Notes: generated by a model from the letters alone, not told the origin. A stretch of 64,000 nt of DNA from Selenomonadaceae bacterium (GCA_017614505.1 JAGABT010000001.1:515-64514); one strand, 5' to 3'; positions 12,676-32,933 are shown, numbered from the stretch's first letter. Numbers and translations: made by a program.

Positions 12676-13185
12676 ATGAAAAATTTTACAAATCAGCGCG
12701 GGCTGGCGGCGCTCGAAGTGGTGATTGTTGCGGCGATTGTGGCGATTTTTGCGACGACCGCCGTTCCCAAAATGGCGCGCGTTCTCGACAAAGTTCAGCT
12801 CGATTACGAAATAAAACACCTCTACAGCACGCTGAATCTGGCGCGTTCAATCAGCAAATCCTCCAGATATAGCAGCGGAATTTTCAAGGTGTCGAGCATT
12901 CGCGATACACATTTTTCGTTTCACGAAACAGGTGATGACTCTTTGAAAAAGCGCTATTTTTACACTCTCACGCTGAGCGGTAGTTCAACTTTTATAGTTC
13001 ACCAGCACAACCTTCCAGAAAAATTCGAGCTTCACAGAGACGGTGGAGGCAACATCATCCATATTTTGCCGGATTCTGGTAAGAGCATAATCTTCACTCT
13101 TAAATCCAGATTTAACAAAAAGGCGTATGTCGTAGGCACTACCGTTGGGCGCTGGCGTGGTACGTATGAAAAACCAAAATCTTAA
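12676..13185 (+). CDS. Prepilin-type N-terminal domain protein, GspH/FimT-like minor pseudopilin.
   Basis: MKNFTNQRG|LAALEVVIVAAIVAIFATTAVP is a class III signal with Glu at +5. An LYSTLNLARS motif follows. I chose the start at ATG 12676 rather than the upstream track start at 12556. Confidence 0.7.
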   Translation: MKNFTNQRGLAALEVVIVAAIVAIFATTAVPKMARVLDKVQLDYEIKHLYSTLNLARSISKSSRYSSGIFKVSSIRDTHFSFHETGDDSLKKRYFYTLTLSGSSTFIVHQHNLPEKFELHRDGGGNIIHILPDSGKSIIFTLKSRFNKKAYVVGTTVGRWRGTYEKPKS

Positions 13186-13561
13186 CCAGTGCGGCTTTAT
13201 GCTGCTGAGCGTAGTTTTTCTGACGCTGATAGTTTCGCTGAGCGCGCAGATTCTCCTGAACGCCAATTCGAAAGTTCAGCAGCGCAATTCTACGCTATAC
13301 CTCACAGCGATTAACCTTGCAAATGAACAGTTCGCTGAAATTGAAGGGCAAAATCTTCCTGCCGGAAATTACAATTTTCTCGGCAACGAAGGCGATTTGG
13401 AAAGTCGCAACGGCGTCAGGGAAGATTCCGAGCCGACAAAATTCGACGTTTCTGCTGAAGTGGGCGAAGGCAATTTGAGAGAGGTTAAAGTTACCGTTAA
13501 GTGGAACGTCGGCGGCAGGGAAAATTCTATCGTATCGAAAAAAAAGATTCGCGCCAGATAA
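13166..13561 (+). CDS. Pseudopilin-like protein (non-canonical, no Glu+5).
   Basis: MKNQNLNQCG|FMLLSVVFLTLIVSL. It overlaps the upstream gene by 20 nt. Confidence 0.45.
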   Translation: MKNQNLNQCGFMLLSVVFLTLIVSLSAQILLNANSKVQQRNSTLYLTAINLANEQFAEIEGQNLPAGNYNFLGNEGDLESRNGVREDSEPTKFDVSAEVGEGNLREVKVTVKWNVGGRENSIVSKKKIRAR

Positions 13562-13589
13562 GTATATCAAACTGCAGGGAAAAATCCAA

Positions 13590-14234
13590 ATGAAATTTAA
13601 AATGGGCGAGCGCGGATTTGTACTGGCAGAATTTGCGATAGCGCTGCCGCTGCTGATTTTGCTTTTGTACGCGCTGGGAATGGTCACGCTCCATGGTTTA
13701 AAAATCGCACGGGAACAGGTTGCGGACTACACGCTTGAAACCGATGCGCAGTATGTTATCGACAGAATCACCAGCGACGCCCGCGCCGCTCAGTATGTCA
13801 GAATAAAAAATGCCAACGACTTCGACGAAATTATTTTTTACTGCTACACGATTGGCGAGCAGGAAAGCGACGATTTTATAGCGAAGGACGGCAAATATTA
13901 TAAATACAGGAAGGAAGAGATTATGTTTGACAACAGGCGCTATTATAAAAACATTCTCGACCCGCGAATTTACAGAATCGACAACAGAGATGGCGGTTTT
14001 TTCCGCGTTTACTTCAAGCACAGCGACGACGATTATCATAGCAGCCCCCTTACCGGCGACAGCACCTACGGCGACCACTATATAACTGAATTTAAAGTCG
14101 ACAGGGACAAGCTGAACCAAAAAATTCTGCACCTGACGCTGGAGATGAAAAGCAATGTCACGAAGAAAAAAGTTAAATTCACCACGTCGGTCTTTATGCC
14201 AGCCTGTGAAAGTTTTAAAGTTCCCAGCGAATAA
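13590..14234 (+). CDS. Pseudopilin / TadE-like protein.
   Basis: MKFKMGERG|FVLAEFAIALPLLILLL has Glu at +5 and a hydrophobic helix. Confidence 0.5.
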   Translation: MKFKMGERGFVLAEFAIALPLLILLLYALGMVTLHGLKIAREQVADYTLETDAQYVIDRITSDARAAQYVRIKNANDFDEIIFYCYTIGEQESDDFIAKDGKYYKYRKEEIMFDNRRYYKNILDPRIYRIDNRDGGFFRVYFKHSDDDYHSSPLTGDSTYGDHYITEFKVDRDKLNQKILHLTLEMKSNVTKKKVKFTTSVFMPACESFKVPSE

Positions 14235-14736
14235 CGAGCGCGGATTTTTTACAATCGTCGGGCTTTGCCTGCTGCTGGCGGTTGCAATTTCAATTCGAGG
14301 CGTACAGGAATTTGAAGGAAATTATTCCGTCGGCGTGTCAAATTCTTTAGCCGAACACGAATTGCAGAATGCGGCTGACAGCGCGCTTATCAAAATGATT
14401 GAAACCGGCAAATACGAAAAAAGTATTATGTCTGACAGGCTCGGAAAAATTTCCATCAACATTAAAACTACGCAAAGCAACATTCGCCGATTCAGGCGCG
14501 AATATGAATCCGGCGGCAAAACCAAGGACATTGCGCTCAATGAAGATAACAGCGACGATACTGGCAAAAATGCGAGTGAACCTGACGATACGCCGGAATG
14601 GCTGAAAATTAAAGCTGACTGTCTGATAAGCATTGCCAGCTGCGAAAATAAAAAATTCGGCGGGACAATTTATCGCTGCTCACAGGCTTACATTATCAAA
14701 GGCGACGACACGGTTTATTTTCTGACGGATTTGTAA
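14206..14736 (+). CDS. Pseudopilin-like protein (non-canonical).
   Basis: ...NNERG|FFTIVGLCLLLAVAI. Candidate GTG start at 14206, in frame with the track ORF 14155. It overlaps the upstream gene. Confidence 0.4.
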   Translation: MKVLKFPANNERGFFTIVGLCLLLAVAISIRGVQEFEGNYSVGVSNSLAEHELQNAADSALIKMIETGKYEKSIMSDRLGKISINIKTTQSNIRRFRREYESGGKTKDIALNEDNSDDTGKNASEPDDTPEWLKIKADCLISIASCENKKFGGTIYRCSQAYIIKGDDTVYFLTDL

Positions 14737-14793: not shown

Positions 14794-15354
14794 ATGGAAA
14801 ATGAAGAGTTCGGCGCGGCGCAAATCGACCTGAACAAACTCGTCGAGCTGATAAACGCAATTCTGGAGCAGCAGGATAAAAATTCGCGGCTCCTCAATCA
14901 AGTCCTGCGCGAAAATATCAATTTCCAAAACCAGGTGCGGCAGGGAATGTACAACGAGCTGGAAGATTTGAAAAAGCAGCAGCGCGGCGAACAGTTCACG
15001 CCGATTTTAAAATCAATCGCGGCAATTTGCGTAGAGTACCGCGCGCTCCTCAATGACGAGACCATTTCAGAAAACTCCCGCCGGTCTTTGCAGCTCATGT
15101 TCGACGAGCTTGAAGACATTCTCGGCGATTACGGCGCAGAAATTTTCAACTCGAACGCAGGAGAGCCGCGCCGCCCGCTCCTTACCAAAATCATAAGCAC
15201 GGTTTCCACCGGCGACCGCAACCAGCATAACACTATCGCTAAAAGCCGTCGCGCTGGCGTCGTTCGCAACGGGCGCCCGCTCTACCGCGAGTTCGTCGAC
15301 GTTTACGTTTTCGACGGCGATAAATCCACGTCCGAATTTGCACGCACTGAATAA
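14794..15354 (+). CDS. GrpE-like nucleotide exchange factor.
   Basis: SD AAGGAGG precedes the ATG. LRENINFQNQVRQ resembles the GrpE LRxxAexeNxRKR helix. PILKSIAAICVEYRALL and the C-terminal GVVRNGRPLYREFVDVYVF resemble the GrpE beta-domain. Confidence 0.6.
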   Translation: MENEEFGAAQIDLNKLVELINAILEQQDKNSRLLNQVLRENINFQNQVRQGMYNELEDLKKQQRGEQFTPILKSIAAICVEYRALLNDETISENSRRSLQLMFDELEDILGDYGAEIFNSNAGEPRRPLLTKIISTVSTGDRNQHNTIAKSRRAGVVRNGRPLYREFVDVYVFDGDKSTSEFARTE

Positions 15355-15387: not shown

Positions 15388-17034
15388 ATGAGTACTTACG
15401 GCATCGACCTCGGCACAACCTATTCCTGTATCGCGCGGCTTGACTCCAACGGCAACCCCGAAGTTATCCGCAACAATGAAGACGATTCAAATATGGTTGC
15501 GTCCGTGGTTTTTTTTGAGAATGAAAACAACGTCGTCGTCGGGCAGGCGGCGAAGGAAAATATCGAGACGGACGGCGACCGCGTCGTTCAGTTCGTCAAG
15601 CGCGAAATTGGCAAGCGCGATATGCGCACCTACACTTTCGACGGCAAAACCTACACGCCCGTTGAAATTTCCGCGCTCATTCTGACGCGCCTTAAAAATC
15701 TCGTCGAATCGCAGGGCAACGAAATTGAAGATGTGGTTATCACCGTCCCCGCGTATTTCGGTCTCGAAGAGCGCTCCGCTACCAAACAGGCGGGCGAACT
15801 TGCCGGACTGCACGTCCTCAGTCTGATTAACGAGCCAACCGCTGCGGCTTTGAGCTACTGCGCGAGACAGTTTCAAGAAGACCGCACGATTTTAGTCTAC
15901 GACCTTGGCGGCGGCACTTTCGACGTTACTGTCGTCAAAATGTCCATGACGCGCAACGAAGCCGGCAAGGACGTGCAGAAAATCAACGTGCTGGCGACCG
16001 GCGGCGACGACCGGCTCGGCGGCAAGGACTGGGACGATAAACTCTTTGACCACATTCTCCACGCCTGCTGCGACGAAAACGGTCTGACGCCCGAAGATAT
16101 TGAAGCCGAAACGCGGCAGGATATTCGCTCCAAAGTCGAAGAGGCTAAGCGCAAGCTCAGTAAGAAACAGTCCGCCAAAGTCCGCATTGACGTGAACGGC
16201 TCCCGCACCGAAATTACTATCAAGCGCTCCGACTTCGAGGCTATGACTTCCGATAAAGTCGCGCAGACCATGAACTTCGTCGACTCCACGCTCCAGAAAG
16301 TTCCAGATGTCGAAATTGATACCGTGCTTTTAGTCGGCGGCTCAACCTACATGCCAATGATTCAGAACGCCGTCGAAGCAAAATTCCCGGGCAAAGTTCA
16401 GCAGCACGACCCAGACCAGGCCGTTGCTAAGGGCGCCGCGATTTACGCCAGCATGCTCGTCGTCGAGGAAAGCGGCGATACTCCCAGCGCGGACGAAACT
16501 TCCTCCGACGAAAATCCTGCCGAAAAGCCCGTTTCGCATACCGAACAGCTTACCGCTAAATTCACCGTCGAAGACCAGACGCCCCGCTCCTTCGGTCCAG
16601 GCGTCATGGATACCAAGGGCGCCAAACACCAGTACGTTTTGGAAAATTTCATCAAGATTGGCGAGAAAATGCCCGCCGTCTTTACCAAAACTTACTACCC
16701 GCTCGAAGATAATCAGGAACGCGTCCGCCTGCGCGCCTTTGAAAATATGTCGCTCGAAGATACGCTCATTCCCTGCGTCGATGAAGACGGCAACCCGCAG
16801 GCTACAGACCCCGCCAATAACGTCAAACTTTTGGGCGAACTCGTTGTAAACCTGCCGCCGGAAACTCCGCGCGATACGCCAATCAAAGTCACGTTCAAGG
16901 TTGACGCGTCCGGCGTACACGTCGAGGCCGTCAACACCCGCACCAATGAAATTTTTGAAACTTTCCTGCGCACTGAATCCGATATTGACGTGGACAACAG
17001 CGCCGTCCACCAGCTCAGAATTTCCGCTGATTAA
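15388..17034 (+). CDS. Hsp70-family ATPase, non-canonical: no helical lid and an acidic insert at the interdomain linker.
   Basis: GIDLGTTYSCIA, VITVPAYF, LINEPTAAAL, VYDLGGGTFDVTV and LVGGSTYMPMIQ motifs. The substrate-binding beta-domain ends at aa ~525 of 548. Confidence 0.9.
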   Translation: MSTYGIDLGTTYSCIARLDSNGNPEVIRNNEDDSNMVASVVFFENENNVVVGQAAKENIETDGDRVVQFVKREIGKRDMRTYTFDGKTYTPVEISALILTRLKNLVESQGNEIEDVVITVPAYFGLEERSATKQAGELAGLHVLSLINEPTAAALSYCARQFQEDRTILVYDLGGGTFDVTVVKMSMTRNEAGKDVQKINVLATGGDDRLGGKDWDDKLFDHILHACCDENGLTPEDIEAETRQDIRSKVEEAKRKLSKKQSAKVRIDVNGSRTEITIKRSDFEAMTSDKVAQTMNFVDSTLQKVPDVEIDTVLLVGGSTYMPMIQNAVEAKFPGKVQQHDPDQAVAKGAAIYASMLVVEESGDTPSADETSSDENPAEKPVSHTEQLTAKFTVEDQTPRSFGPGVMDTKGAKHQYVLENFIKIGEKMPAVFTKTYYPLEDNQERVRLRAFENMSLEDTLIPCVDEDGNPQATDPANNVKLLGELVVNLPPETPRDTPIKVTFKVDASGVHVEAVNTRTNEIFETFLRTESDIDVDNSAVHQLRISAD

Positions 17035-17043
17035 AATTTTCCT

Positions 17044-17078
17044 GCCCGCTCCGATGAAGGTCGGGGCTTTTTTTATTT
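17044..17078 (+). terminator. Possible weak intrinsic terminator or attenuator after the Hsp70 gene.
   Basis: Imperfect GC hairpin at 17044-17067 (gcccg...cggggc) followed by TTTTTTT (17068-17074). Confidence 0.4.
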
Positions 17079-17087
17079 GAATGCGTG

Positions 17088-17096
17088 TGCTATAAT
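17088..17096 (+). promoter_or_regulatory. Extended -10 promoter (TGcTATAAT).
   Basis: tgtgctataatc at 17086-17097 is the same 12-mer as at 60526-60537. Confidence 0.5.
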
Positions 17097-17113
17097 CCGC
17101 GCAGGTGATTTTT

Positions 17114-20100
17114 TTGGCGAATAAAAATATTTTTGAGATGCTGAATCTGGAGTTCGATCCGCCCGATAATTTGAAGAAAATCCGCGCGGCGTATGAGAAC
17201 TGGAAAAAGCGTCTGACTGCAGAACTTAACACTACCGTCGACCCCACGCGCCTGGGCGTTATCAAATCCGAACTGGCTATGGATAACTACATCGTCCAGA
17301 TTATCGAGAACGCCCGCCTGCGCCAGCGCGAAGCCGAAGCTCTTAAGCAAATTCGCGTTGAACAGCTGCGCCTTTATATCGACCTCCAGCGCGGCAATAC
17401 TTCCGGCACGCTCCAGGTCAACCAGTCGCAAATCAAGCACATTCGCGACAAACTCAAGCTCAGCGCCGCCACGATTGAAGCCACTTACAGGGAGCAGGGC
17501 TTTATCGTCAAGCCCGAGCGCTCGACTAAATCTATCGCCGACAAGCTCAACGGCTTTTTTATTGCCGATTCGGTTATGGAGGAACTGCGCAAGAGTTTCG
17601 CCGACTTCCAGACCGTTCCCGACGAAAAAAATTATCCGTGGTCAGCGAATGTCAGCAACCTGTACGAACTTGCCTACTACCTCGAACATCAAATCGAACC
17701 TTCGGCAGATTTTTACAAGCGCCGCGATACCGATGACCTGCGCGAAATTTTCCGCGACGAGGCTAAAAAAGTTTCCGCGCCAATTCCAGCGTGGCAGTCT
17801 ATCAAAGCTCTCCTGAACCTCGCGCAGACGCAGATTTTCAATTCCGACGATAACCGTTTCAAGTACGACCATTCGCTCAGAATCGAGCGGCTCAGCGATT
17901 TTTTTGCCAAGCTCAAATCTGCGCCAGAAATTTTCAAGCGCGATAAATATTTCGCCGACAACTGCATTAACCGTATCCGCCGCACTTTCCCGAATCTCCT
18001 AAACTACGAATTGAGCGCCGCGCTTTACAACAAGGTTGCCGGTCTTTTGAACGACCCCTACGAATCCATCAGCGACGATAACGAAAATTTTTTCTGCATG
18101 ACCTGCTCGAACTGCGGAGCCTTTGAAAATTTCCGCACGCGCGAAGAGGCTGAACGCGCGTCCTGCAAAGTTTGCGGCGAAACTTTCTACGCAGAATGTC
18201 CAAAGTGCGGCAAGAAAGTTCCCGCCAACGCCGACCACTGCCCCGCCTGCGATTTTTCTTTGAGCGAACTGCGCCGCTTCAACTATTACGTCGACCACGC
18301 CAACGTTATGCTCGACCTGCTGGATCGCAGCGCCAAATCTTTTGAAGGCAGCCTCGAGGTCGTCATGGCGGAAATTATCGACAATCTTTCCAAAGCCAAA
18401 GTCGCCAAGCCCGAATCGCCCGAACTTACCAAAATCGAATGGCGCATTCACAAAATCTCCGCCGAAAATAAAAAGCGCGAACTTATCAAGTGGGCTGAGG
18501 CTAAACTGCCTGGTCTCAACACGCACCCCGATACCGCCGTCAGCGCCTGCATGGAAATTCTCCGCCGCATTAAAGACTACCGCCCCGCCCGCGACCGCCT
18601 GCGCCTTATCAAGCCTAAAAAGCCGCTGAGCGCTGAAGCCGTCATTCATAAATCCTCCAAAAGTTCCGCGCTCCAGAATACCGGCACGGCAACCGTTCTG
18701 GGCAGAATTTCCGTCAACGCCAAATCTTCCAGCACAAGCCTCGTCGCGCCCAGCTACAATCTCACCTGTACCGTGAACTGGCAGCCAGATAACGATCTCG
18801 GCGTCGTCTACACGGTCGTACGCAAAATCGACGGCATTCCGCAGAATTACCGCGACGGCGTGGTTATCGTCGAAGGCACTGACAAAATCGAGGCGGACGA
18901 TAACGACATCAAGCCAGGCGTTTTCTACGGCTACGCGGTTTTCGCCACGCGCCTCGGCGCCATTTCCGAACCAGCCACCTGCACCGCCGTTTTCTACAGC
19001 GACATCGACGAAAACAGACTCCTTGCCAAAACCGAGGACGGGCATTGCTCCTTCACGTGGAATTTGCCTTCGGATAACTGCCTCGGCGTGCGGATTATTC
19101 GCAGCGACAAAGATGGAAATACCGTCGTCGTGGCGGATTGCACGCAGTCTCCGTTCGTTGACCGGCTCGTTAAAAACCGCAAGCAGTATCAGTATTGCCT
19201 GCAGTGCGTCTACTATTCGGCGGCGGAAGTCGTACTCAACCGCGCGAAATTCTTAGCCGAAGCCAGCAGCGAAAATTTCAACCGCGTCTGGAAAATCGAC
19301 CAGGCTTTCCGCTACAGCAAGGGCTTGACTATCACGATGACGCCCGAACTTCCTCCGCGCCAGATTAAAAATCTTGAATATAAAGTTGTCGATAACCGCG
19401 TCCGATTCAGCTGGCAGTCGACCGGCGATTTCGAGCTGCTGTTCAAGGAAATTCCCGCCGATAAAAAAATTTCCGCTGAAACCGGCAAAATTTTCGACGC
19501 CGCTAAGCTTGAAGAAATTCTGGGCGAAGGCAAAATTCTCAACCGCGCCGAGAGTTCCGACCAGTTCTGCGAATTTGAACTCACCGGCGACATAATCAAA
19601 ATCGCCGCCGTCAGCGCAACTACCCATTCCGCGCTTGTCGACGAAATTATCACAATCGCCAACGTCGAGGACTGCGAAATTGACGCCGAAAAAACTCAAA
19701 TCGTCGGCAGGGATTTGAAACTCGTGCTGAAAAATCTGCCGAAAAATATTTACATGATTCATTACCGAATCAGCACCGACGAGGACGACGAAATTTACGC
19801 AACGGTTGAGGACGCCCGCGAACGCCACATGAATCGCATTTACGCCTCCAAGTACGAGCGCGACAGCTTTATCATGCAGCCGCACCTTCCGCAGCGCGAA
19901 CTTTTTGTGACGGTTATCGGCGAGTACAAGCTCAAAGACGGCACGACGATTTATTCTGAGCCGAGTACGCTGGCTGTCAACAATCGCCCGCGCGAAGAAA
20001 TTTCCTACCGCTTCGAGTGGGGCAAGAGCGGCTTGTTCAACAAAAAAAATCTGGCGAAAAATTGCAAGCTGATTGTTGAGAGCAAGGCTGAATCTACGCC

Positions 20101-20356
20101 GAAACTTTTCATAGCCTACCGCAAAGACCGCCGCGTCAACGTCGAGCTCAAGGACGAAGAAACGCGCGTCCTCCAGACAATTCCAGAATACAAGCACGGT
20201 TTTCCGAACGGGCGGCTTGAAATTCTTCTGCCTGACGAAATCTGGGAAGGCGTCGACCCAGGCACTGTGATTAAACTCCTGCCCGCCGAGGAAGATGAAA
20301 AATTTTTCGACCTCAAGGAATCTGACCTCGACAGCCTGACAGTTCCGAAGAAATGA
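17114..20356 (+). CDS. Large Hsp70-associated protein: J-like N-terminus lacking HPD, double zinc ribbon, and at least 2-3 FN3-like beta-sandwich repeats.
   Basis: A TTG at 17114 lies 5 nt after AGGTGA (17103-17108). Alternative starts are GTG 17105 and ATG 17138. NIFEMLNLEFDPPDNLKKIRAAYENWKKRL resembles J-domain helices I-II, but no HPD follows. Four CxxC pairs are encoded at 18095-18253. W...VY.V.R...G...Y.Y.V modules lie at about 18746-18994 and 19022-19219. Confidence 0.8.
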   Translation: MANKNIFEMLNLEFDPPDNLKKIRAAYENWKKRLTAELNTTVDPTRLGVIKSELAMDNYIVQIIENARLRQREAEALKQIRVEQLRLYIDLQRGNTSGTLQVNQSQIKHIRDKLKLSAATIEATYREQGFIVKPERSTKSIADKLNGFFIADSVMEELRKSFADFQTVPDEKNYPWSANVSNLYELAYYLEHQIEPSADFYKRRDTDDLREIFRDEAKKVSAPIPAWQSIKALLNLAQTQIFNSDDNRFKYDHSLRIERLSDFFAKLKSAPEIFKRDKYFADNCINRIRRTFPNLLNYELSAALYNKVAGLLNDPYESISDDNENFFCMTCSNCGAFENFRTREEAERASCKVCGETFYAECPKCGKKVPANADHCPACDFSLSELRRFNYYVDHANVMLDLLDRSAKSFEGSLEVVMAEIIDNLSKAKVAKPESPELTKIEWRIHKISAENKKRELIKWAEAKLPGLNTHPDTAVSACMEILRRIKDYRPARDRLRLIKPKKPLSAEAVIHKSSKSSALQNTGTATVLGRISVNAKSSSTSLVAPSYNLTCTVNWQPDNDLGVVYTVVRKIDGIPQNYRDGVVIVEGTDKIEADDNDIKPGVFYGYAVFATRLGAISEPATCTAVFYSDIDENRLLAKTEDGHCSFTWNLPSDNCLGVRIIRSDKDGNTVVVADCTQSPFVDRLVKNRKQYQYCLQCVYYSAAEVVLNRAKFLAEASSENFNRVWKIDQAFRYSKGLTITMTPELPPRQIKNLEYKVVDNRVRFSWQSTGDFELLFKEIPADKKISAETGKIFDAAKLEEILGEGKILNRAESSDQFCEFELTGDIIKIAAVSATTHSALVDEIITIANVEDCEIDAEKTQIVGRDLKLVLKNLPKNIYMIHYRISTDEDDEIYATVEDARERHMNRIYASKYERDSFIMQPHLPQRELFVTVIGEYKLKDGTTIYSEPSTLAVNNRPREEISYRFEWGKSGLFNKKNLAKNCKLIVESKAESTPKLFIAYRKDRRVNVELKDEETRVLQTIPEYKHGFPNGRLEILLPDEIWEGVDPGTVIKLLPAEEDEKFFDLKESDLDSLTVPKK

Positions 20357-20365
20357 GGTGACGCT

Positions 20366-21772
20366 ATGCGAGATGCTATTAGCCAAATTCTCGAAATCAT
20401 AACGAATAATTTCCCGAATGGCATACGCGACGACTTCATCGACATGAACCGTGTCGCGAAAATTTACTCGGAGAATCACGCGGGTGAAAATATTTCGCGG
20501 GATTTTGTTGCTGACTTCATTCGTGCGAACGGGATTGAAAAAGACGGGCGTTTTTATTTCATTTTCGGCGCCGCTTCTGAAAAACTCCTGCGGTTTATCG
20601 CTGAAATTTTGGACTCCAGTTTTATCGCCTACTATTCCAAAATCTACGAGTGCCACGCTAATTTTTTCGAGAGCTTGCATATTTTCTCGCCAGAAGTTCT
20701 TAGAAAAATTCTGCAGCGGATTGATATCGACAAGGAACATTTTTATTTCTCGGATTTTTGTTCCGCAAGAAAAATGAAATGGGCTGACTACGAAGCGGCG
20801 GAGTGGCTAGAAAACGAAGTTGCAAGAATTTTCATAGCCGCGGATAAAGCTCTTGCGCTGGAAGATTTGCAGGAAAAAATTCCCTACGTGCCGGCTGAAA
20901 AAATTTCTGAAGTTCTCTCTGACGCTCAAAAATATTTTCCGACGCGCGACGGCAAATATCTTCCCAATTCCAAAATCCAGTTCGACATCGACGAAATTCG
21001 CGCGGCTAAACGCAAAATAATCGCCAGCATAAACGCGAACGGTTGCGCTTCCACCGAGGAGTTCAGTTTAGCGTCTAACTTCGCACTCAATCCCGAACTT
21101 AGCGAAAAAGATTTGCGCCGCCTGATTTACGGCAGATTTTTCTCCGACTTAACCATACGCGGCAAAAAATTCTACAGGCAAGGCGCCGCCACTTCCACCA
21201 GCCAGACTAAAACTCTGCGCGAATTTATCGCCGGTCAAAATGAACTGACTGCCAACAAACTTTTTGCCTTCGCTGAAAGTATTGGCGCCGCCGTACATGT
21301 TACGTTATCCGTCGCCTACGAAACGATGGTTCGCGTCGATAAAAATCTTTTCGTTAAAGACGCGATGATAAAATTCGACGTTGCCGCTATCGACGAGGCG
21401 CTGGCTCCGTTCGTGCAGAAGAAAATTATTTCGCTGCAGTCCGTCACGAGTTTTACCGGCTTCCCGCCCGTCGAAGGCTATTCCTGGAATTTGTTCCTGC
21501 TCGAAAGTTTTCTGCGCAAGTTCAGCGAAAAGTACGTTTACGTCAAGCCCGCCACCAACAGCTCGAATCTCGGTGCAATTCACCCCAGCGCGATGAAATT
21601 TAAAGACTATCTCGACGTTCAGGCGGCGGTTATCCTTCAGGAAAATGTGCCGCTAGAAAAATCTGCCGTCGATGAGTTTCTGATGAATCACGGCTTCAGG
21701 GGCAAGCGCAGGGATAAAGTTATCGCGCGAATTATCGCCAGAGCTCAAGAATTTATTGAGGAAAGTTTCTAA
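20366..21772 (+). CDS. Hypothetical 468-aa protein, translationally coupled to brxP.
   Basis: SD GAGGTGA precedes the ATG. The stop overlaps the brxP start (TAATG at 21770-21774). I recognise no motif. Confidence 0.75.
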   Translation: MRDAISQILEIITNNFPNGIRDDFIDMNRVAKIYSENHAGENISRDFVADFIRANGIEKDGRFYFIFGAASEKLLRFIAEILDSSFIAYYSKIYECHANFFESLHIFSPEVLRKILQRIDIDKEHFYFSDFCSARKMKWADYEAAEWLENEVARIFIAADKALALEDLQEKIPYVPAEKISEVLSDAQKYFPTRDGKYLPNSKIQFDIDEIRAAKRKIIASINANGCASTEEFSLASNFALNPELSEKDLRRLIYGRFFSDLTIRGKKFYRQGAATSTSQTKTLREFIAGQNELTANKLFAFAESIGAAVHVTLSVAYETMVRVDKNLFVKDAMIKFDVAAIDEALAPFVQKKIISLQSVTSFTGFPPVEGYSWNLFLLESFLRKFSEKYVYVKPATNSSNLGAIHPSAMKFKDYLDVQAAVILQENVPLEKSAVDEFLMNHGFRGKRRDKVIARIIARAQEFIEESF

Positions 21773-31600: not shown

Positions 31601-31807
31601 TTGGCTAAGAAAATTTTCAGCTGCATTGCCTGCGGGAAAAGCCCGCTGACGAAGAATGAAGTCGGTATAACGAAAAAGCTTTTGGGCGCGAAGTCCAGAA
31701 ATTTTTATTGCATAGATTGTCTGGCGGATTTTCTGGAGGTCGAGCCGCAGGATATTCTTGACAAGATTGAGGAATTTAAAAATGACGGTTGCAGGCTCTT
31801 CGAGTAA
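31601..31807 (+). CDS. Small zinc-ribbon protein (68 aa).
   Basis: The TTG start abuts the brxL stop. There are two CxxC pairs (CIACG ... CIDCL). Only a non-ATG start is available, so confidence is moderate. Confidence 0.45.
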   Translation: MAKKIFSCIACGKSPLTKNEVGITKKLLGAKSRNFYCIDCLADFLEVEPQDILDKIEEFKNDGCRLFE

Positions 31808-32933
31808 AATAATTTACGCGGACAACGCGGCGACGACGCCACTTGACGCGGACGCGCTGGCGTTGATGATTGAACTTCAGAAAAATTTTTTTGCAAATCC
31901 TTCGGCGGCGTACAATCTTTCGCGCCCACTGAAAAAAGTTCTGCAGGAGTCGCGGGAAAAAATTGCCGCGTGCATTAACGCTGAGCCGTACGAAATTTTT
32001 TTCACGTCGGGAGGCTCCGAGAGCGATAACTGGGCGATAAAATCTGTCGCGCTGGAAAATTTGAGCGAGCGTCCAGACATAGTTACTTCCGGCATTGAGC
32101 ACAAGGCGATTCTAAATTCCTGCGCGGCGATGAAAAATTTGGGCTGCACCGTGACGAAAGTGCCAGTCGATTACACCGGCACAGTCAGTCCCGCCGCTCT
32201 GAGGACGAAAATTTCACGGCGCACAAAAATTGTTTCCGTCATGCTGGCGAATAACGAAGTCGGAACGATTCAGCCAGTTAAATTGCTCGCGGAAATTGCG
32301 CACGACAAGAGAAAAATTTTCCACACGGATGCGGTACAGGCAGTCGGACACATTCCGATTGACGTAGAATTTCTGGGGGTGGATATGCTGTCAGCTTCGG
32401 CGCACAAGTTCAACGGACCAAAAGGCGTCGGCTTCCTGTACGTTCGCGAAGGACTGGAAATTTTGCCGTATATTGACGGCGGCGGGCAGGAATTTTCTAA
32501 GCGCGCTGGGACGGAAAACGTTCCGGCCATTGCGGCGATGGCTCTGGCTCTCGAAAAAAATTGCCGCGCAATGCGGAAGACTGCCGCAAAACTTTCTGCC
32601 TGCACGAAAACTCTGATTGACTGCCTCAGGAACAGCGGCGCGGATTTTATCGTGAATGGTGACGAAAATCGTTTGCCTGGGCATTTGAGTTTGTCTTTCA
32701 GAAACTGCGACGGCGAAACTTTAATGCACCGGCTCGACTTGAAAAATATCTGCGTGTCGACGGGTTCTGCGTGCAATTCGCGGCGGACGGAAATTTCTCA
32801 CGTGCTGAAGGCGATGAAAGTTCCGCGCGAGTACGTTCGCGGGACGATTCGCGTAACTTTCGGCAGGAACAATTCCGTCAGCGAGGCGGAAACTATCGGT
32901 AGAAGTTTGTCGGAAATATTTTCTGAGAAATAA
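31782..32933 (+). CDS. Class V aminotransferase / cysteine desulfurase (NifS/IscS/DndA-like).
   Basis: IYADNAATTP, the PLP-lysine motif SAHKFNGPKG, and the active-site STGSACNS. ATG 31782 has SD GAGGAA. It overlaps the small ORF by 26 nt. Confidence 0.85.
   Translation: MTVAGSSSKIIYADNAATTPLDADALALMIELQKNFFANPSAAYNLSRPLKKVLQESREKIAACINAEPYEIFFTSGGSESDNWAIKSVALENLSERPDIVTSGIEHKAILNSCAAMKNLGCTVTKVPVDYTGTVSPAALRTKISRRTKIVSVMLANNEVGTIQPVKLLAEIAHDKRKIFHTDAVQAVGHIPIDVEFLGVDMLSASAHKFNGPKGVGFLYVREGLEILPYIDGGGQEFSKRAGTENVPAIAAMALALEKNCRAMRKTAAKLSACTKTLIDCLRNSGADFIVNGDENRLPGHLSLSFRNCDGETLMHRLDLKNICVSTGSACNSRRTEISHVLKAMKVPREYVRGTIRVTFGRNNSVSEAETIGRSLSEIFSEK

What the first reader, a model, noticed from the sequence alone, without database searches (positions are those of the whole stretch)
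17105..20356. 1080-aa Hsp70 partner: J-like helix pair without HPD, double zinc ribbon, then FN3-like repeats
The N-terminus reads (M)ANKNIFEMLNLEFDPPDNLKKIRAAYENWKKRLTAELN. It resembles J-domain helices I-II, but the invariant HPD tripeptide is absent.

Residues 331-383 contain CxxCxxC...CxxC...CxxC...CxxC, which is two zinc ribbons. From about residue 548 onward, repeated W-x(7-10)-VY-x-V-x-R ... G-x-Y-x-Y-x-V modules look like fibronectin-III/Ig-like sandwiches.

I know of no characterised protein with this layout. Its position between a private Hsp70 and BREX suggests an adaptor or sensor. An extended -10 promoter and an AGGTGA SD sit directly in front, and the exact start (17105, 17114 or 17138) is ambiguous.
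Basis: partly seen in the sequence, partly recalled or inferred. Interest (0 to 1): 0.65.

Follow-up and report, generated by a model that had tools for sequence, protein, structure and literature searches.

The report
Hsp70-linked J-like FN3 sensor protein
This 1080-residue cytoplasmic protein is the fibronectin-repeat subunit of a predicted but untested bacterial conflict system built around a private Hsp70 chaperone, and here it survives in a stripped-down form that has lost the system's GTPase switch.

Summary
The ORF is real. It starts at the TTG at 17114, gives 1080 aa and is under purifying selection.

- The N-terminus is J-domain-related and lacks HPD, in this protein and in all 48 diverse relatives checked.
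- Eight conserved Cys form two zinc ribbons.
- The C-terminal half is a run of about five FN3-type beta-sandwiches.

The layout is not undescribed. The protein is a full-length homologue of the FNIII-repeat component of the GAP1-N2-type DO-GTPase systems, in their HSP70/GrpE theme (Kaur et al. 2020, eLife e52696). That system is predicted only and has never been tested.

In Clostridia-type relatives the gene sits in a fixed operon of about 20 kb: GrpE, two Hsp70s, this protein, a zinc-ribbon GTPase, a GAP1-like protein and DO-GTPases, usually with Imm33/GH-E. All 39 assessable loci carry Hsp70. A paralogue fuses the N-terminal 320-aa module directly to an Hsp70.

Rumen Selenomonadaceae carry a reduced version without GAP1. 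The window's clade has also lost the adjacent GTPase, leaving only GrpE, a lidless Hsp70 and this protein.

The BREX type 4 cassette downstream is a neighbouring insertion, not a partner.

Verdict: a new reduced variant of a known, predicted kind, of moderate interest.

The parts
14794..15354 (+). GrpE-like nucleotide-exchange factor gene (186 aa), dedicated to the system.
   Evidence: Pfam GrpE matches at E 3.8e-8, 33.6 bits, above the 25.8-bit cut-off. It is 52-64% identical to the GrpE-like genes next to homologues in L003 and L006, and 30% to L080. dN/dS is 0.11 against L009.
15388..17034 (+). Private Hsp70 paralogue (548 aa): intact ATPase domain plus beta substrate-binding subdomain, with no helical lid.
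   Evidence: Pfam HSP70 matches at 2.5e-87 over residues 5-359. The PDB alignment shows the NBD motifs and a second match at 469-532 to the end of the DnaK SBD-beta. The protein ends 16-28 residues later. The position equivalent to DnaK R167 is Ser here, and S/N/D in all system Hsp70s. It is 45% identical over its full length to the first Hsp70 of Clostridial operons. dN/dS is 0.045.
17048..17077 (+). Terminator-like hairpin plus T-run between the Hsp70 gene and the target.
   Evidence: Pattern scan found 8 pairs, a loop of 4 and a TTTTTTTATT tail. The hairpin and T-run are conserved in L009, and an equivalent is present in L012. This is a pattern match only; function is not shown.
17088..17096 (+). 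Extended -10 promoter-like element, TGcTATAAT.
   Evidence: Read directly from the sequence. (A)TG(C/T)TATAAT is conserved in the window, L009, L010 and L012. It is absent in loci where the Hsp70-target gap is only 34-44 nt. No transcript data could be obtained.
17103..17108 (+). Shine-Dalgarno sequence AGGTGA, 5 nt before the TTG start.
   Evidence: Read directly from the sequence. A purine-rich SD sits at the same place in all 7 aligned loci.
17114..17338 (+). Target residues 1-75: degenerate J-like domain without HPD. The start codon is TTG at 17114.
   Evidence: The family-wide motif is NYFE(I/L)LGLxFDPPE..KI..AI..W, and no member has HPD. HHalign against J domains gives 90%, E 1.7e-6, covering J positions 2-63, with controls at most 0.4%. 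A weak PDB profile hit to the DNAJB8 J domain has E 0.49. Foldseek found no J domain.
17339..18088 (+). Target residues 76-325: family-specific helical domain. Together with the J-like part it forms a separable module of about 320 aa.
   Evidence: The AlphaFold model is all-helical here, with pLDDT mostly 85-93. The module 1-318 recurs at 40% identity fused to an Hsp70 NBD in P0393. It carries the conserved motifs FADNCI and YNK..G..PYE. No Pfam or PDB match was found.
18089..18259 (+). Target residues 326-382: double zinc ribbon (4 x CxxC).
   Evidence: C331, C334, C351, C354, C362, C365, C376 and C379 are invariant or nearly so in alignments A1-A3. Pfam DZR matches weakly at E 0.0039. The model shows short beta hairpins here.
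18260..18754 (+). Target residues 383-547: second helical region (383-500), followed by a low-confidence linker (about 516-545).
   Evidence: The model has helices at 383-497 and pLDDT below 50 at 516-545. This is the least conserved part of the protein, with 0.43-0.52 mean pairwise identity. A clade of relatives has a duplication of about 65 aa here.
18755..19219 (+). Target residues 548-702: two canonical FN3 domains.
   Evidence: The model shows beta-sandwiches, and Foldseek matches fibronectin FN3 tandems at E 1.5e-12. W556, Y566, D581, G582, Y605, Y607, W649, Y692 and Y694 are conserved across the wide family.
19220..20356 (+). Target residues 703-1080 plus the stop codon: a helix/linker, then three larger FN3/Ig-like beta-sandwich domains.
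   Evidence: The model is mostly beta, with pLDDT mostly 84-91. The region is included in the Foldseek FN3 array matches. The module 723-1074 also occurs in shorter proteins with other N-termini.

Best explanation
**What it is.** The gene encodes the FNIII-repeat subunit of a chaperone-based 'conflict' system. This is the HSP70/GrpE theme of the GAP1-N2-type DO-GTPase systems predicted by Kaur, Burroughs, Iyer and Aravind (2020).

**Shown here**
- The protein is soluble and cytoplasmic.
- It has a J-domain-derived N-terminus without HPD, inside a separable helical module of about 320 aa.
- It also has two zinc ribbons, a second helical region and five FN3-type sandwiches.
- It is homologous over its full length to proteins that, in Clostridia-type operons, always sit between two Hsp70 genes with GrpE and a zinc-ribbon GTPase, a GAP1-like protein and DO-GTPases.

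**Inferred mechanism**
- The N-terminal module docks the protein on the dedicated lidless Hsp70. The interface has drifted from the canonical one: HPD is lost in the J-like part, and the Arg equivalent to DnaK R167 is lost in the Hsp70.
- The protein therefore probably tethers or is remodelled by the Hsp70, rather than acting as a classical ATPase trigger.
- The GrpE-like protein resets the Hsp70.
- The FN3 array binds the thing to be sensed, most likely a protein of an invading element.
- In complete systems the zinc-ribbon and helical middle passes the signal to the zinc-ribbon GTPase and GAP1 switch, and on to effectors such as GH-E nucleases.

**The window's version.** Rumen Selenomonadaceae have no GAP1. 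In the window's clade the adjacent GTPase is gone too. Only GrpE, Hsp70 and this protein remain, and all three are kept by purifying selection. The triad must therefore work on its own or with partners encoded elsewhere in the genome. The BREX type 4 cassette next door is an independent insertion.
For: **Family membership**
- A profile search finds 1415 representative relatives, many of them 1000-1045 aa and matching from residue 1.
- The protein of Stomatobaculum longum aligns end to end with the target at E 2e-50.

**Gene context of distant relatives**
- L006, L079, L080 and L081 show the order GrpE, Hsp70, Hsp70, this protein, a ZnR-GTPase with Pfam DO-GTPase1/2 hits, an 843-916 aa protein with a weak GAP1-M hit, then DO-GTPases.
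- In a metagenome census, 39 of 39 loci have Hsp70 upstream and 37 of 39 have GrpE. All 39 of 39 have the ZnR-GTPase and the GAP1-like gene downstream. These loci fall into about 26 distinct clusters.
- This context matches the published description.

**Link to Hsp70**
- A natural fusion joins the N-terminal 320-aa module to an Hsp70 NBD.
- HHalign to J domains gives 90%, E 1.7e-6, with clean controls.
- The Hsp70 is lidless with an intact NBD.
- The position equivalent to DnaK R167 is S/N/D in every system Hsp70. That this Arg contacts the Asp of HPD is established knowledge (DnaK R167H suppressing DnaJ D35N; the DnaK-J-domain complex 5NRO) and was not tested here.

**Selenomonadaceae census**
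- The ZnR-GTPase lies directly downstream in 32 of 47 loci, and Hsp70 upstream in 18 of 41.

**Selection and localisation**
- dN/dS is 0.11 for the target, 0.045 for Hsp70 and 0.11 for GrpE.
- The target has no TM segment.
Against: - The window has no DO-GTPase, GAP1 or recognisable effector anywhere in its 64 kb. The defining switch of the published system is therefore missing here.
- Foldseek on a confident model of residues 1-100 recovers no J domain; the best hit has E 0.8. Pfam DnaJ is not hit.
- The FN3 domains are not more variable than the rest of the protein within Selenomonadaceae. This does not look like an arms-race sensor.
- In Selenomonadaceae the gene sits among housekeeping genes in several different contexts, and 23 of 41 loci lack a nearby Hsp70.
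- No member of the family or the system has been tested experimentally.
- That our family is the same as the 'DnaJ-FNIII' proteins of Kaur et al. is inferred from context.
Confidence: 0.62

Rival explanations
1. The protein is an accessory sensor or adaptor of the adjacent BREX type 4 system, coupling the private Hsp70 to BREX.
For: - The gene ends 9 nt before a co-oriented cassette of a 468-aa ORF, brxP, brxC, pglZ and brxL.
- The same arrangement occurs in L009.
- A BREX type 4 cassette also lies downstream of a 47%-identical homologue in L054.
Against: - BREX follows the gene in only 2 of 47 assessable species loci.
- In L054 the ribosomal genes rplM and rpsI separate the two.
- In close relatives with the same flanking synteny, the slot holds a permease, or DeoR plus an IS605 element and sugar-metabolism genes.
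- None of the 39 Clostridial loci shows BREX genes among the conserved partners.
- PADLOC finds no BREX model in the target.
Confidence: 0.05
2. In Selenomonadaceae the reduced module has been domesticated for a housekeeping job unrelated to defence. One possibility is a specialised Hsp70 machine for assembling a cell-envelope or pilus structure, with the FN3 array as scaffold.
For: - The gene is present in at least 66 species-level Selenomonadaceae genomes at 45-90% identity, among core genes such as ybeY/era, pcrA/ligA, thiE and frd.
- It evolves under uniform purifying selection without hypervariable FN3 domains.
- No toxin or effector is linked.
- In the window's clade, four pseudopilin-like genes lie directly upstream of grpE on the same strand.
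Against: - The pseudopilin genes are adjacent only in one clade and lie elsewhere in L003.
- The gene's neighbourhood changes between species, and insertions such as a YoeB TA pair, an MmeI fragment, IS605 and BREX accumulate around it. This is typical of variable islands.
- The parent system sits on integrase- and transposase-flanked elements with a toxin-immunity pair.
- The protein itself is cytoplasmic, with no signal peptide or TM segment.
Confidence: 0.17
3. The locus is a decaying remnant. After loss of the GTPase and GAP1 the three remaining genes are functionless and on their way to pseudogenisation.
For: - The defining DO-GTPase and GAP1 genes are absent from the window.
- They are absent from 10 of 11 fully assessable loci of its clade.
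- A terminator and a separate promoter-like element now split the former operon.
Against: - All three ORFs are intact.
- dN/dS is 0.05-0.11 against a 90%-identical orthologue, with dS of 0.3-0.5.
- The same GTPase-less arrangement persists across several species of the clade at 66-90% identity.
- The identical protein is found on 5 contigs from different samples.
Confidence: 0.05
4. The N-terminus is a fully functional J domain that stimulates the ATPase of Hsp70 in the classical way, so the protein is simply a large specialised DnaJ-type co-chaperone that delivers clients.
For: - There is profile-level similarity over the whole J domain.
- Kaur et al. call the fused domain DnaJ.
- Hsp70 and GrpE are linked to the gene.
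Against: - HPD is absent in all 48 diverse members, and the loop that replaces it is not conserved across the family. HPD is required for ATPase stimulation in known J proteins; this is established knowledge.
- The partner Hsp70 lacks the Arg that pairs with the HPD Asp.
- Pfam DnaJ and Foldseek do not recognise the domain.
Confidence: 0.1

Closest known systems
FNIII-repeat component (DnaJ- or TPR-fused) of the GAP1-N2-type DO-GTPase systems, HSP70/GrpE theme (Kaur, Burroughs, Iyer, Aravind 2020, eLife 9:e52696; PMC7159879)
   Same: - FN3 repeats at the C-terminus and a J-related domain at the N-terminus.
- Adjacent dedicated Hsp70 and GrpE genes, and a Firmicutes host.
- Full-length homology to proteins embedded in operons with Pfam-recognisable DO-GTPases and a GAP1-like protein.
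   Different: - The window's locus has no DO-GTPase, no GAP1 and no effector.
- All Selenomonadaceae loci lack GAP1.
- The J-like domain has no HPD, which the paper does not mention.
- The FN3 domains are not notably fast-evolving here.
- The published system is a prediction without experiments.
Canonical DnaK-DnaJ-GrpE chaperone triad
   Same: - Three-gene logic: an Hsp70 ATPase, a GrpE exchange factor and a J-related partner.
- The Hsp70 NBD motifs and the beta substrate-binding subdomain are retained.
   Different: - There is no HPD in the J-like part, no glycine-rich or client-binding DnaJ domains, and no Pfam DnaJ hit.
- The two simple zinc ribbons are not homologous to the DnaJ CxxCxGxG zinc finger.
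- The Hsp70 has no lid and lacks the R167-equivalent Arg.
- The partner carries a 530-residue FN3 array.
J-like proteins without HPD, such as mitochondrial Pam16/Tim16 (recalled from established knowledge; not tested here)
   Same: A J-related helical domain that has lost HPD and would be expected to bind or regulate an Hsp70 machine rather than stimulate its ATPase.
   Different: There is no detectable sequence relationship. Pam16 is small and acts through a true J protein (Pam18), and no HPD-bearing partner is seen in the window or in related loci.
Hsp70-like CnuD/CnuCD components of CoCoNuT type III McrBC systems (Bell et al. 2024, PMC11090510)
   Same: A dedicated, divergent Hsp70 NBD/SBD unit is recruited into a predicted defence operon, sometimes next to BREX.
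   Different: - Those Hsp70s have degenerate ATPase motifs, are tied to McrB GTPases, HEPN nucleases and coiled coils, and are proposed to bind RNA.
- Here the NBD motifs are intact, GrpE is present, and the partner is an FN3 protein.
bNACHT25, which senses phage through host DnaJ (PLoS Biol 2025, PMC12169576)
   Same: Conceptually, it is an immune sensor that exploits the Hsp70/J-protein chaperone network. It was seen only as a title and abstract.
   Different: It uses the housekeeping DnaJ and a NACHT ATPase, has no private Hsp70 and no FN3 array, and is unrelated in sequence.

Membership tests
FNIII-repeat component of GAP1-N2-type DO-GTPase systems, HSP70/GrpE theme (Kaur et al. 2020) | [quoted passage not shown] | tested here: met
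   The AlphaFold model has pLDDT 83.5. Foldseek matches FN3 tandems at E 1.5e-12 and probability 1.00.
FNIII-repeat component of GAP1-N2-type DO-GTPase systems, HSP70/GrpE theme (Kaur et al. 2020) | N-terminal fusion to a DnaJ-type domain (or TPR). | tested here: inconclusive
   HHalign to J domains gives 90%, E 1.7e-6, with controls at most 0.4%. Against this, there is no HPD, no Pfam DnaJ hit and no J domain among the Foldseek hits.
FNIII-repeat component of GAP1-N2-type DO-GTPase systems, HSP70/GrpE theme (Kaur et al. 2020) | Homology to FN3 proteins encoded inside operons that carry DO-GTPase and GAP1 genes. | tested here: met
   The target aligns over its full length with P0353 at E 2e-50 and is 34% identical to P0270. 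The operons of these relatives hold Pfam DO-GTPase1/2 proteins and a GAP1-M-positive protein.
FNIII-repeat component of GAP1-N2-type DO-GTPase systems, HSP70/GrpE theme (Kaur et al. 2020) | Linked HSP70 and GrpE genes. | tested here: met
   In the window, GrpE-like lies at 14794-15354 and Hsp70 at 15388-17034. Hsp70 is linked in 18 of 41 Selenomonadaceae loci and in 39 of 39 loci of the distant subfamily.
GAP1-N2-type DO-GTPase system (whole locus) | One or two DO-GTPase genes. | tested here: not met
   tblastn with three DO-GTPase types finds no homologue in the 64-kb window, and Pfam gives no hit on the downstream ORF. The GTPase is present next to the gene in 32 of 47 Selenomonadaceae loci but in only 1 of 11 fully assessable loci of the window's clade. 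The rest of the genome could not be searched.
GAP1-N2-type DO-GTPase system (whole locus) | GAP1 protein with a GAP1-N2 domain. | tested here: not met
   tblastn with L006_916 finds no GAP1-like gene in the window or in any Selenomonadaceae locus. In Clostridial loci an 843-916 aa protein occupies the GAP1 position, but only L006_916 gives a weak Pfam GAP1-M hit (8e-5). The GAP1-N2 domain itself was not detected.
J-domain proteins (DnaJ/Hsp40, Pfam PF00226) | Invariant His-Pro-Asp tripeptide between helices II and III. | tested here: not met
   HPD is absent in the target (ELNTTVDP) and in all 48 aligned relatives.
J-domain proteins (DnaJ/Hsp40, Pfam PF00226) | Match to the family profile or fold. 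| tested here: inconclusive
   Pfam DnaJ is not reported for any of 23 N-termini even at E up to 10. A PDB profile hit to DNAJB8 has E 0.49. HHalign gives 90%. Foldseek gives none.
BREX type 4 component | Conserved co-occurrence with brxP, brxC, pglZ and brxL, or a match to a BREX protein model. | tested here: not met
   PADLOC reports 0 families for the target. BREX lies downstream in 2 of 47 species loci and is separated by rplM-rpsI in L054.
Double zinc ribbon (Pfam PF12773 DZR) | Two consecutive four-Cys zinc ribbons. | tested here: met
   Eight Cys in four CxxC pairs are invariant or nearly invariant across the family. The Pfam score is below the curated cut-off, 17.8 vs 27.3 bits, so the pattern is met but Pfam membership is not certified.

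The most novel reading that the evidence does not exclude
The GrpE, lidless Hsp70 and HPD-less J-like/FN3 triad may be a self-sufficient, minimal Hsp70-based immune or surveillance module. In this reading the FN3 array captures a foreign protein. The degenerate J-like module hands that protein, or the FN3 protein itself, to a private Hsp70 that sequesters or unfolds it. No GTPase switch or enzymatic effector is needed. The Selenomonadaceae clade would then show the irreducible core of the much larger DO-GTPase systems.
Probability: 0.15. Interest if true: 0.8.

Novelty: new variant of a known kind. Interest (0 to 1): 0.5.

Why it matters
- Hsp70 machines dedicated to conflict systems have been predicted but never tested.
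- This locus offers the smallest natural version: three genes, all under purifying selection, in abundant rumen bacteria. That makes the question of what the private Hsp70 does with the FN3 protein directly testable without the roughly 12-gene parent operon.
- The paired loss of HPD in the J-like domain and of the R167-equivalent Arg in the Hsp70, together with natural fusions of the N-terminal module to Hsp70, point to a non-canonical J-Hsp70 interface.
- The work also corrects a tempting misreading, that the protein belongs to BREX. It shows that a 'DnaJ' annotation for this family would be misleading.

Tried and rejected
**Direct searches on the target**
- Pfam, NCBIfam, PADLOC and a PDB sequence search found only a sub-threshold DZR hit.

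**Homologue searches that added little**
- A second homologous-protein search, run with a 48-sequence profile, returned almost the same Selenomonadaceae set plus one new relative, P0270.
Narrower alignments then worked.

**Fold searches**
- Foldseek on the N-terminal 100-residue model gave no significant match and no J domain.
- Foldseek of the whole model against viral structures gave only generic FN3 arrays.

**Tests of specific ideas**
- A family profile against GAP1-like proteins and the other neighbours gave nothing below E 0.03, so the big protein does not hide a GAP1 domain.
- tblastn with J-domain sequences against the window and all loci found no bona fide DnaJ gene to use as a local reference.
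- The 468-aa ORF downstream is not a divergent GTPase. It has no P-loop and no similarity to the GTPases, and it travels with brxP.

**Data that were not available**
- No RNA sequencing run holding the region could be listed, so the promoter and 5' end remain untested.
- The held supplement of Kaur et al. lists organisms only, so accession-level identity with their 'DnaJ-FNIII' proteins could not be verified.

**Rejected interpretations**
- BREX accessory, decaying remnant and classical DnaJ co-chaperone were all considered and rejected (see rival explanations).

Full report
**1. The observation**

The ORF listed as 17105..20356 on the + strand exists. Its true start is the TTG at 17114.

- This TTG is invariant in seven related loci and is preceded by a Shine-Dalgarno sequence 5-8 nt upstream (AGGTGA, 17103-17108, in the window).
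- Residues 2-9 are conserved across the family, which rules out the ATG at 17138.
- The GTG at 17105 lies inside the SD.
- The public protein collection holds an identical 1080-aa product on five contigs.

A terminator-like hairpin with a T-run (17048-17077) lies between the Hsp70 gene and this gene. In more distant relatives the Hsp70-target gap is only 34-44 nt and has neither element, so the two genes were originally one operon. No RNA run could be found to test this.

**2. Anatomy**

An AlphaFold2 model built on 28 homologues has mean pLDDT 83.5. It shows the following regions:

| Residues | Feature |
|---|---|
| 1-310 | Helical N-terminal region |
| 326-382 | Short beta hairpins |
| 383-497 | More helices |
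| 516-545 | Low-confidence linker |
| 548-1080 | About five beta-sandwiches |

- Foldseek against the PDB matches tandem FN3 fragments of fibronectin, contactins and cytokine receptors (best E 1.5e-12, probability 1.00). The viral library gives only generic FN3 arrays.
- Eight cysteines in four CxxC pairs (C331/334, C351/354, C362/365, C376/379) are invariant or nearly so, even among relatives at 21-25% identity. These form two zinc ribbons. Pfam DZR matches only below its cut-off.
- The protein has no hydrophobic segment (maximum Kyte-Doolittle 19-residue mean 1.24) and no signal peptide. The FN3 array is therefore cytoplasmic.

**3. Is the N-terminus J-like?**

The whole family begins with N-Y-F-E-(I/L)-L-G-L-x-F-D-P-P-E...K-I...A-I...W. 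This resembles helix I and the start of helix II of J domains. None of 48 diverse members has His-Pro-Asp, and the loop at that position is variable.

Evidence for a J relationship:
- A profile of 23 N-termini, compared with a small J-domain alignment, gives HHalign probability 90% and E 1.7e-6 over J positions 2-63.
- Reversed and 16 column-shuffled controls score 7-12 with probability at most 0.4%.
- The same profile against all PDB sequences returns just two hits at E up to 10. One of them is the DNAJB8 J domain (E 0.49, spanning residues 4-71).

Evidence against:
- Pfam DnaJ is not reported for any member.
- Foldseek on a confident model of residues 1-100 (pLDDT 89) finds only generic helical bundles at E 0.8 or worse.

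I conclude that residues 1-75 are most likely a diverged derivative of a J domain that has lost the catalytic HPD and has lengthened helices. This is supported at profile level and not confirmed by structure.

**4. The neighbours in the window**

- Upstream lie a GrpE-like gene (Pfam GrpE above its cut-off) and an Hsp70 paralogue.
- The Hsp70 has all NBD motifs, and the end of its beta substrate-binding subdomain is detectable. It stops about 20 residues later, so it has no helical lid.
- At the position of DnaK R167 it has Ser. In known DnaK-DnaJ pairs this Arg contacts the Asp of HPD; that is established knowledge and was not tested here. All Hsp70s of this system in the fetched loci have S, N or D at that position.
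- Downstream, a 468-aa ORF without any family match abuts brxP, followed by brxC, pglZ and brxL. This is a BREX type 4 cassette.

**5. Relatives and their context**

Close homologues (45-100% identity) are all from rumen Selenomonadaceae/Quinella. Where named, they are labelled 'zinc ribbon domain-containing protein' or hypothetical. An exhaustive profile search finds 1415 representative relatives, many of them 1000-1045 aa and matching from residue 1.

The relatives whose context could be read are very informative.

- In a 34%-identical relative (L006), and in *Stomatobaculum longum* and Ruminococcaceae YRB3002 (L079, L080; 24% identity end to end, E 2e-50), the gene lies in one long co-oriented operon.
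- The operon order is: TraG-like ATPase, unknown gene, GrpE-like, Hsp70, second Hsp70, this protein, a 366-aa zinc-ribbon GTPase (Pfam DO-GTPase1/2), an 843-916 aa protein (weak GAP1-M hit in L006), one or two 516-547 aa DO-GTPases, and an Imm33/GH-E immunity-toxin pair.
- These operons are flanked by integrase or transposase genes.

A metagenome scan for this subfamily gave 57 loci, and the longer ones fall into about 26 distinct clusters.
- Of 39 loci with at least 5 kb upstream, 39 have Hsp70 and 37 have GrpE.
- Of 39 loci with at least 4 kb downstream, 39 have the zinc-ribbon GTPase and the GAP1-like gene, and 37 have a DO-GTPase.

In several of these loci an extra gene encodes the N-terminal 320-residue module of our family (40% identity) fused directly to an Hsp70 ATPase domain (P0393). 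Such a fusion is strong evidence that this module works with Hsp70.

**6. What is known**

This context is the 'second theme' of the GAP1-N2-type DO-GTPase systems of Kaur, Burroughs, Iyer and Aravind (eLife 2020; PMC7159879). [quoted passage not shown] They propose three roles:
- the FNIII domains sense the invader;
- the GTPase-GAP1 pair is the switch;
- HSP70 contributes NTP-dependent assemblies.

Full-text searches found no experimental work on these systems.

**7. The Selenomonadaceae version is reduced**

I examined 66 species-representative loci.
- The zinc-ribbon GTPase lies directly downstream in 32 of 47 assessable loci.
- The Hsp70 paralogue lies upstream in 18 of 41 assessable loci.
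- No locus has a GAP1-like gene.
- In the clade under 64% identical to the window protein, the GTPase is nearly always present (23 of 24).
- In the window's own clade (64% or more) it is nearly always absent (1 of 11), while Hsp70/GrpE is retained in 5 of 11.
- The window has no GTPase or GAP1 homologue anywhere in its 64 kb.

The three remaining genes are intact and constrained. Against the 90%-identical orthologue, dN/dS is 0.11 for the target, 0.045 for Hsp70 and 0.11 for GrpE, with dS of 0.3-0.5. Conservation is even along the protein, and the FN3 domains are not hypervariable.

**8. BREX is a neighbour, not a partner**

- Relatives with the same upstream synteny (epimerase, glycerate kinase, four small genes, GrpE, Hsp70) have other genes downstream. 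One has a permease; another has DeoR, an IS605-type element and sugar-metabolism genes before the same fumarate-reductase genes that follow BREX in the window.
- BREX type 4 follows the gene in only 2 of 47 species loci.
- In L054 it is separated from the gene by rplM-rpsI.

**9. Most likely mechanism**

Shown:
- Family membership.
- The domain anatomy.
- The obligatory Hsp70/GrpE/GTPase context in the parent systems.
- The fusion of the N-terminal module to Hsp70.
- The loss of HPD and of the R167-equivalent Arg.
- Purifying selection on the triad.

Inferred:
- The N-terminal module docks on the private lidless Hsp70 through a non-canonical interface.
- The FN3 array binds a target protein.
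- In full systems the zinc-ribbon and helical middle communicates with the zinc-ribbon GTPase and GAP1, and then with effectors.
- In the window the triad acts alone or with unlinked partners.

The main rival is domestication for a non-defence role in Selenomonadaceae (about 0.17). The BREX-adaptor, relic and classical-DnaJ readings are unlikely.

**10. Verdict**

The protein is a member of a computationally described but experimentally untouched family. The locus is a new, reduced variant that fails two defining features of the published system, the DO-GTPase and GAP1. Interest is moderate. The main value is a three-gene handle on what a private Hsp70 does in these systems.

Noticed in passing
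window 12718-14736 (+): Four co-oriented small ORFs (155, 138, 214 and 176 aa) lie directly upstream of the GrpE-like gene. Each has a single N-terminal hydrophobic helix and prepilin-like motifs (QRG-LAALE, ERG-FVLAEF). They are conserved at this place in the window's clade. In L003 their homologues lie elsewhere, next to ABC/T2SSF-like genes.
   Followed up: partly
window 20366-21772 (+): A 468-aa ORF has no match in Pfam or NCBIfam and only a faint PADLOC match. Its stop overlaps the brxP start. A homologue precedes brxP in L009 (71% identity) and L054 (48% identity, 577 aa). It is probably an undescribed first gene of this BREX type 4 cassette.
   Followed up: partly
window 31758-32933 (+): A NifS/DndA-like cysteine desulfurase gene lies right after brxL (NifS 2.8e-126; DndA model 1.1e-85). 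Next to the PAPS-reductase/DndC-like BrxP, this hints at sulfur chemistry in BREX type 4.
   Followed up: no
L081 10001-12541 (P0393); also L098, L108, L110, L114: An extra gene in some Clostridial operons fuses the N-terminal 320-aa module of the FN3 family (40% identity) directly to an Hsp70 ATPase domain.
   Followed up: yes
L079 18410-19056; L080 18347-19065; most of L084-L135: An Imm33 immunity gene and a GH-E nuclease-toxin gene lie inside the DO-GTPase/Hsp70 operons, between two DO-GTPase genes. A TraG/VirD4-like ATPase gene sits at the head of the operon, and integrase or transposase genes flank it.
   Followed up: partly
L003 8531-9980: A YoeB-type toxin-antitoxin pair and a C-terminal fragment of an MmeI-type enzyme are inserted between the Hsp70 gene and the FN3 gene.
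   Followed up: no
L007 3806-5451; L054 493-2078: A SIR2-like gene and a Macro-domain gene lie directly upstream of the FN3 gene in the 45-49% identity clade, which lacks Hsp70 nearby.
   Followed up: no
L075 7267-7902; L076 6894-7553: A DUF1269 (glycine-zipper membrane protein) gene sits between the Hsp70 gene and the FN3 gene in two close relatives. It is absent from the window.
   Followed up: no
alignment, columns 450-530 (P0076, P0090, P0105, P0109): A sub-clade carries an insertion of about 65 aa after the zinc ribbons that repeats the following helical segment (FxxYVDEMNxMLxELE...). P0118 instead has a third and fourth zinc ribbon.
   Followed up: no
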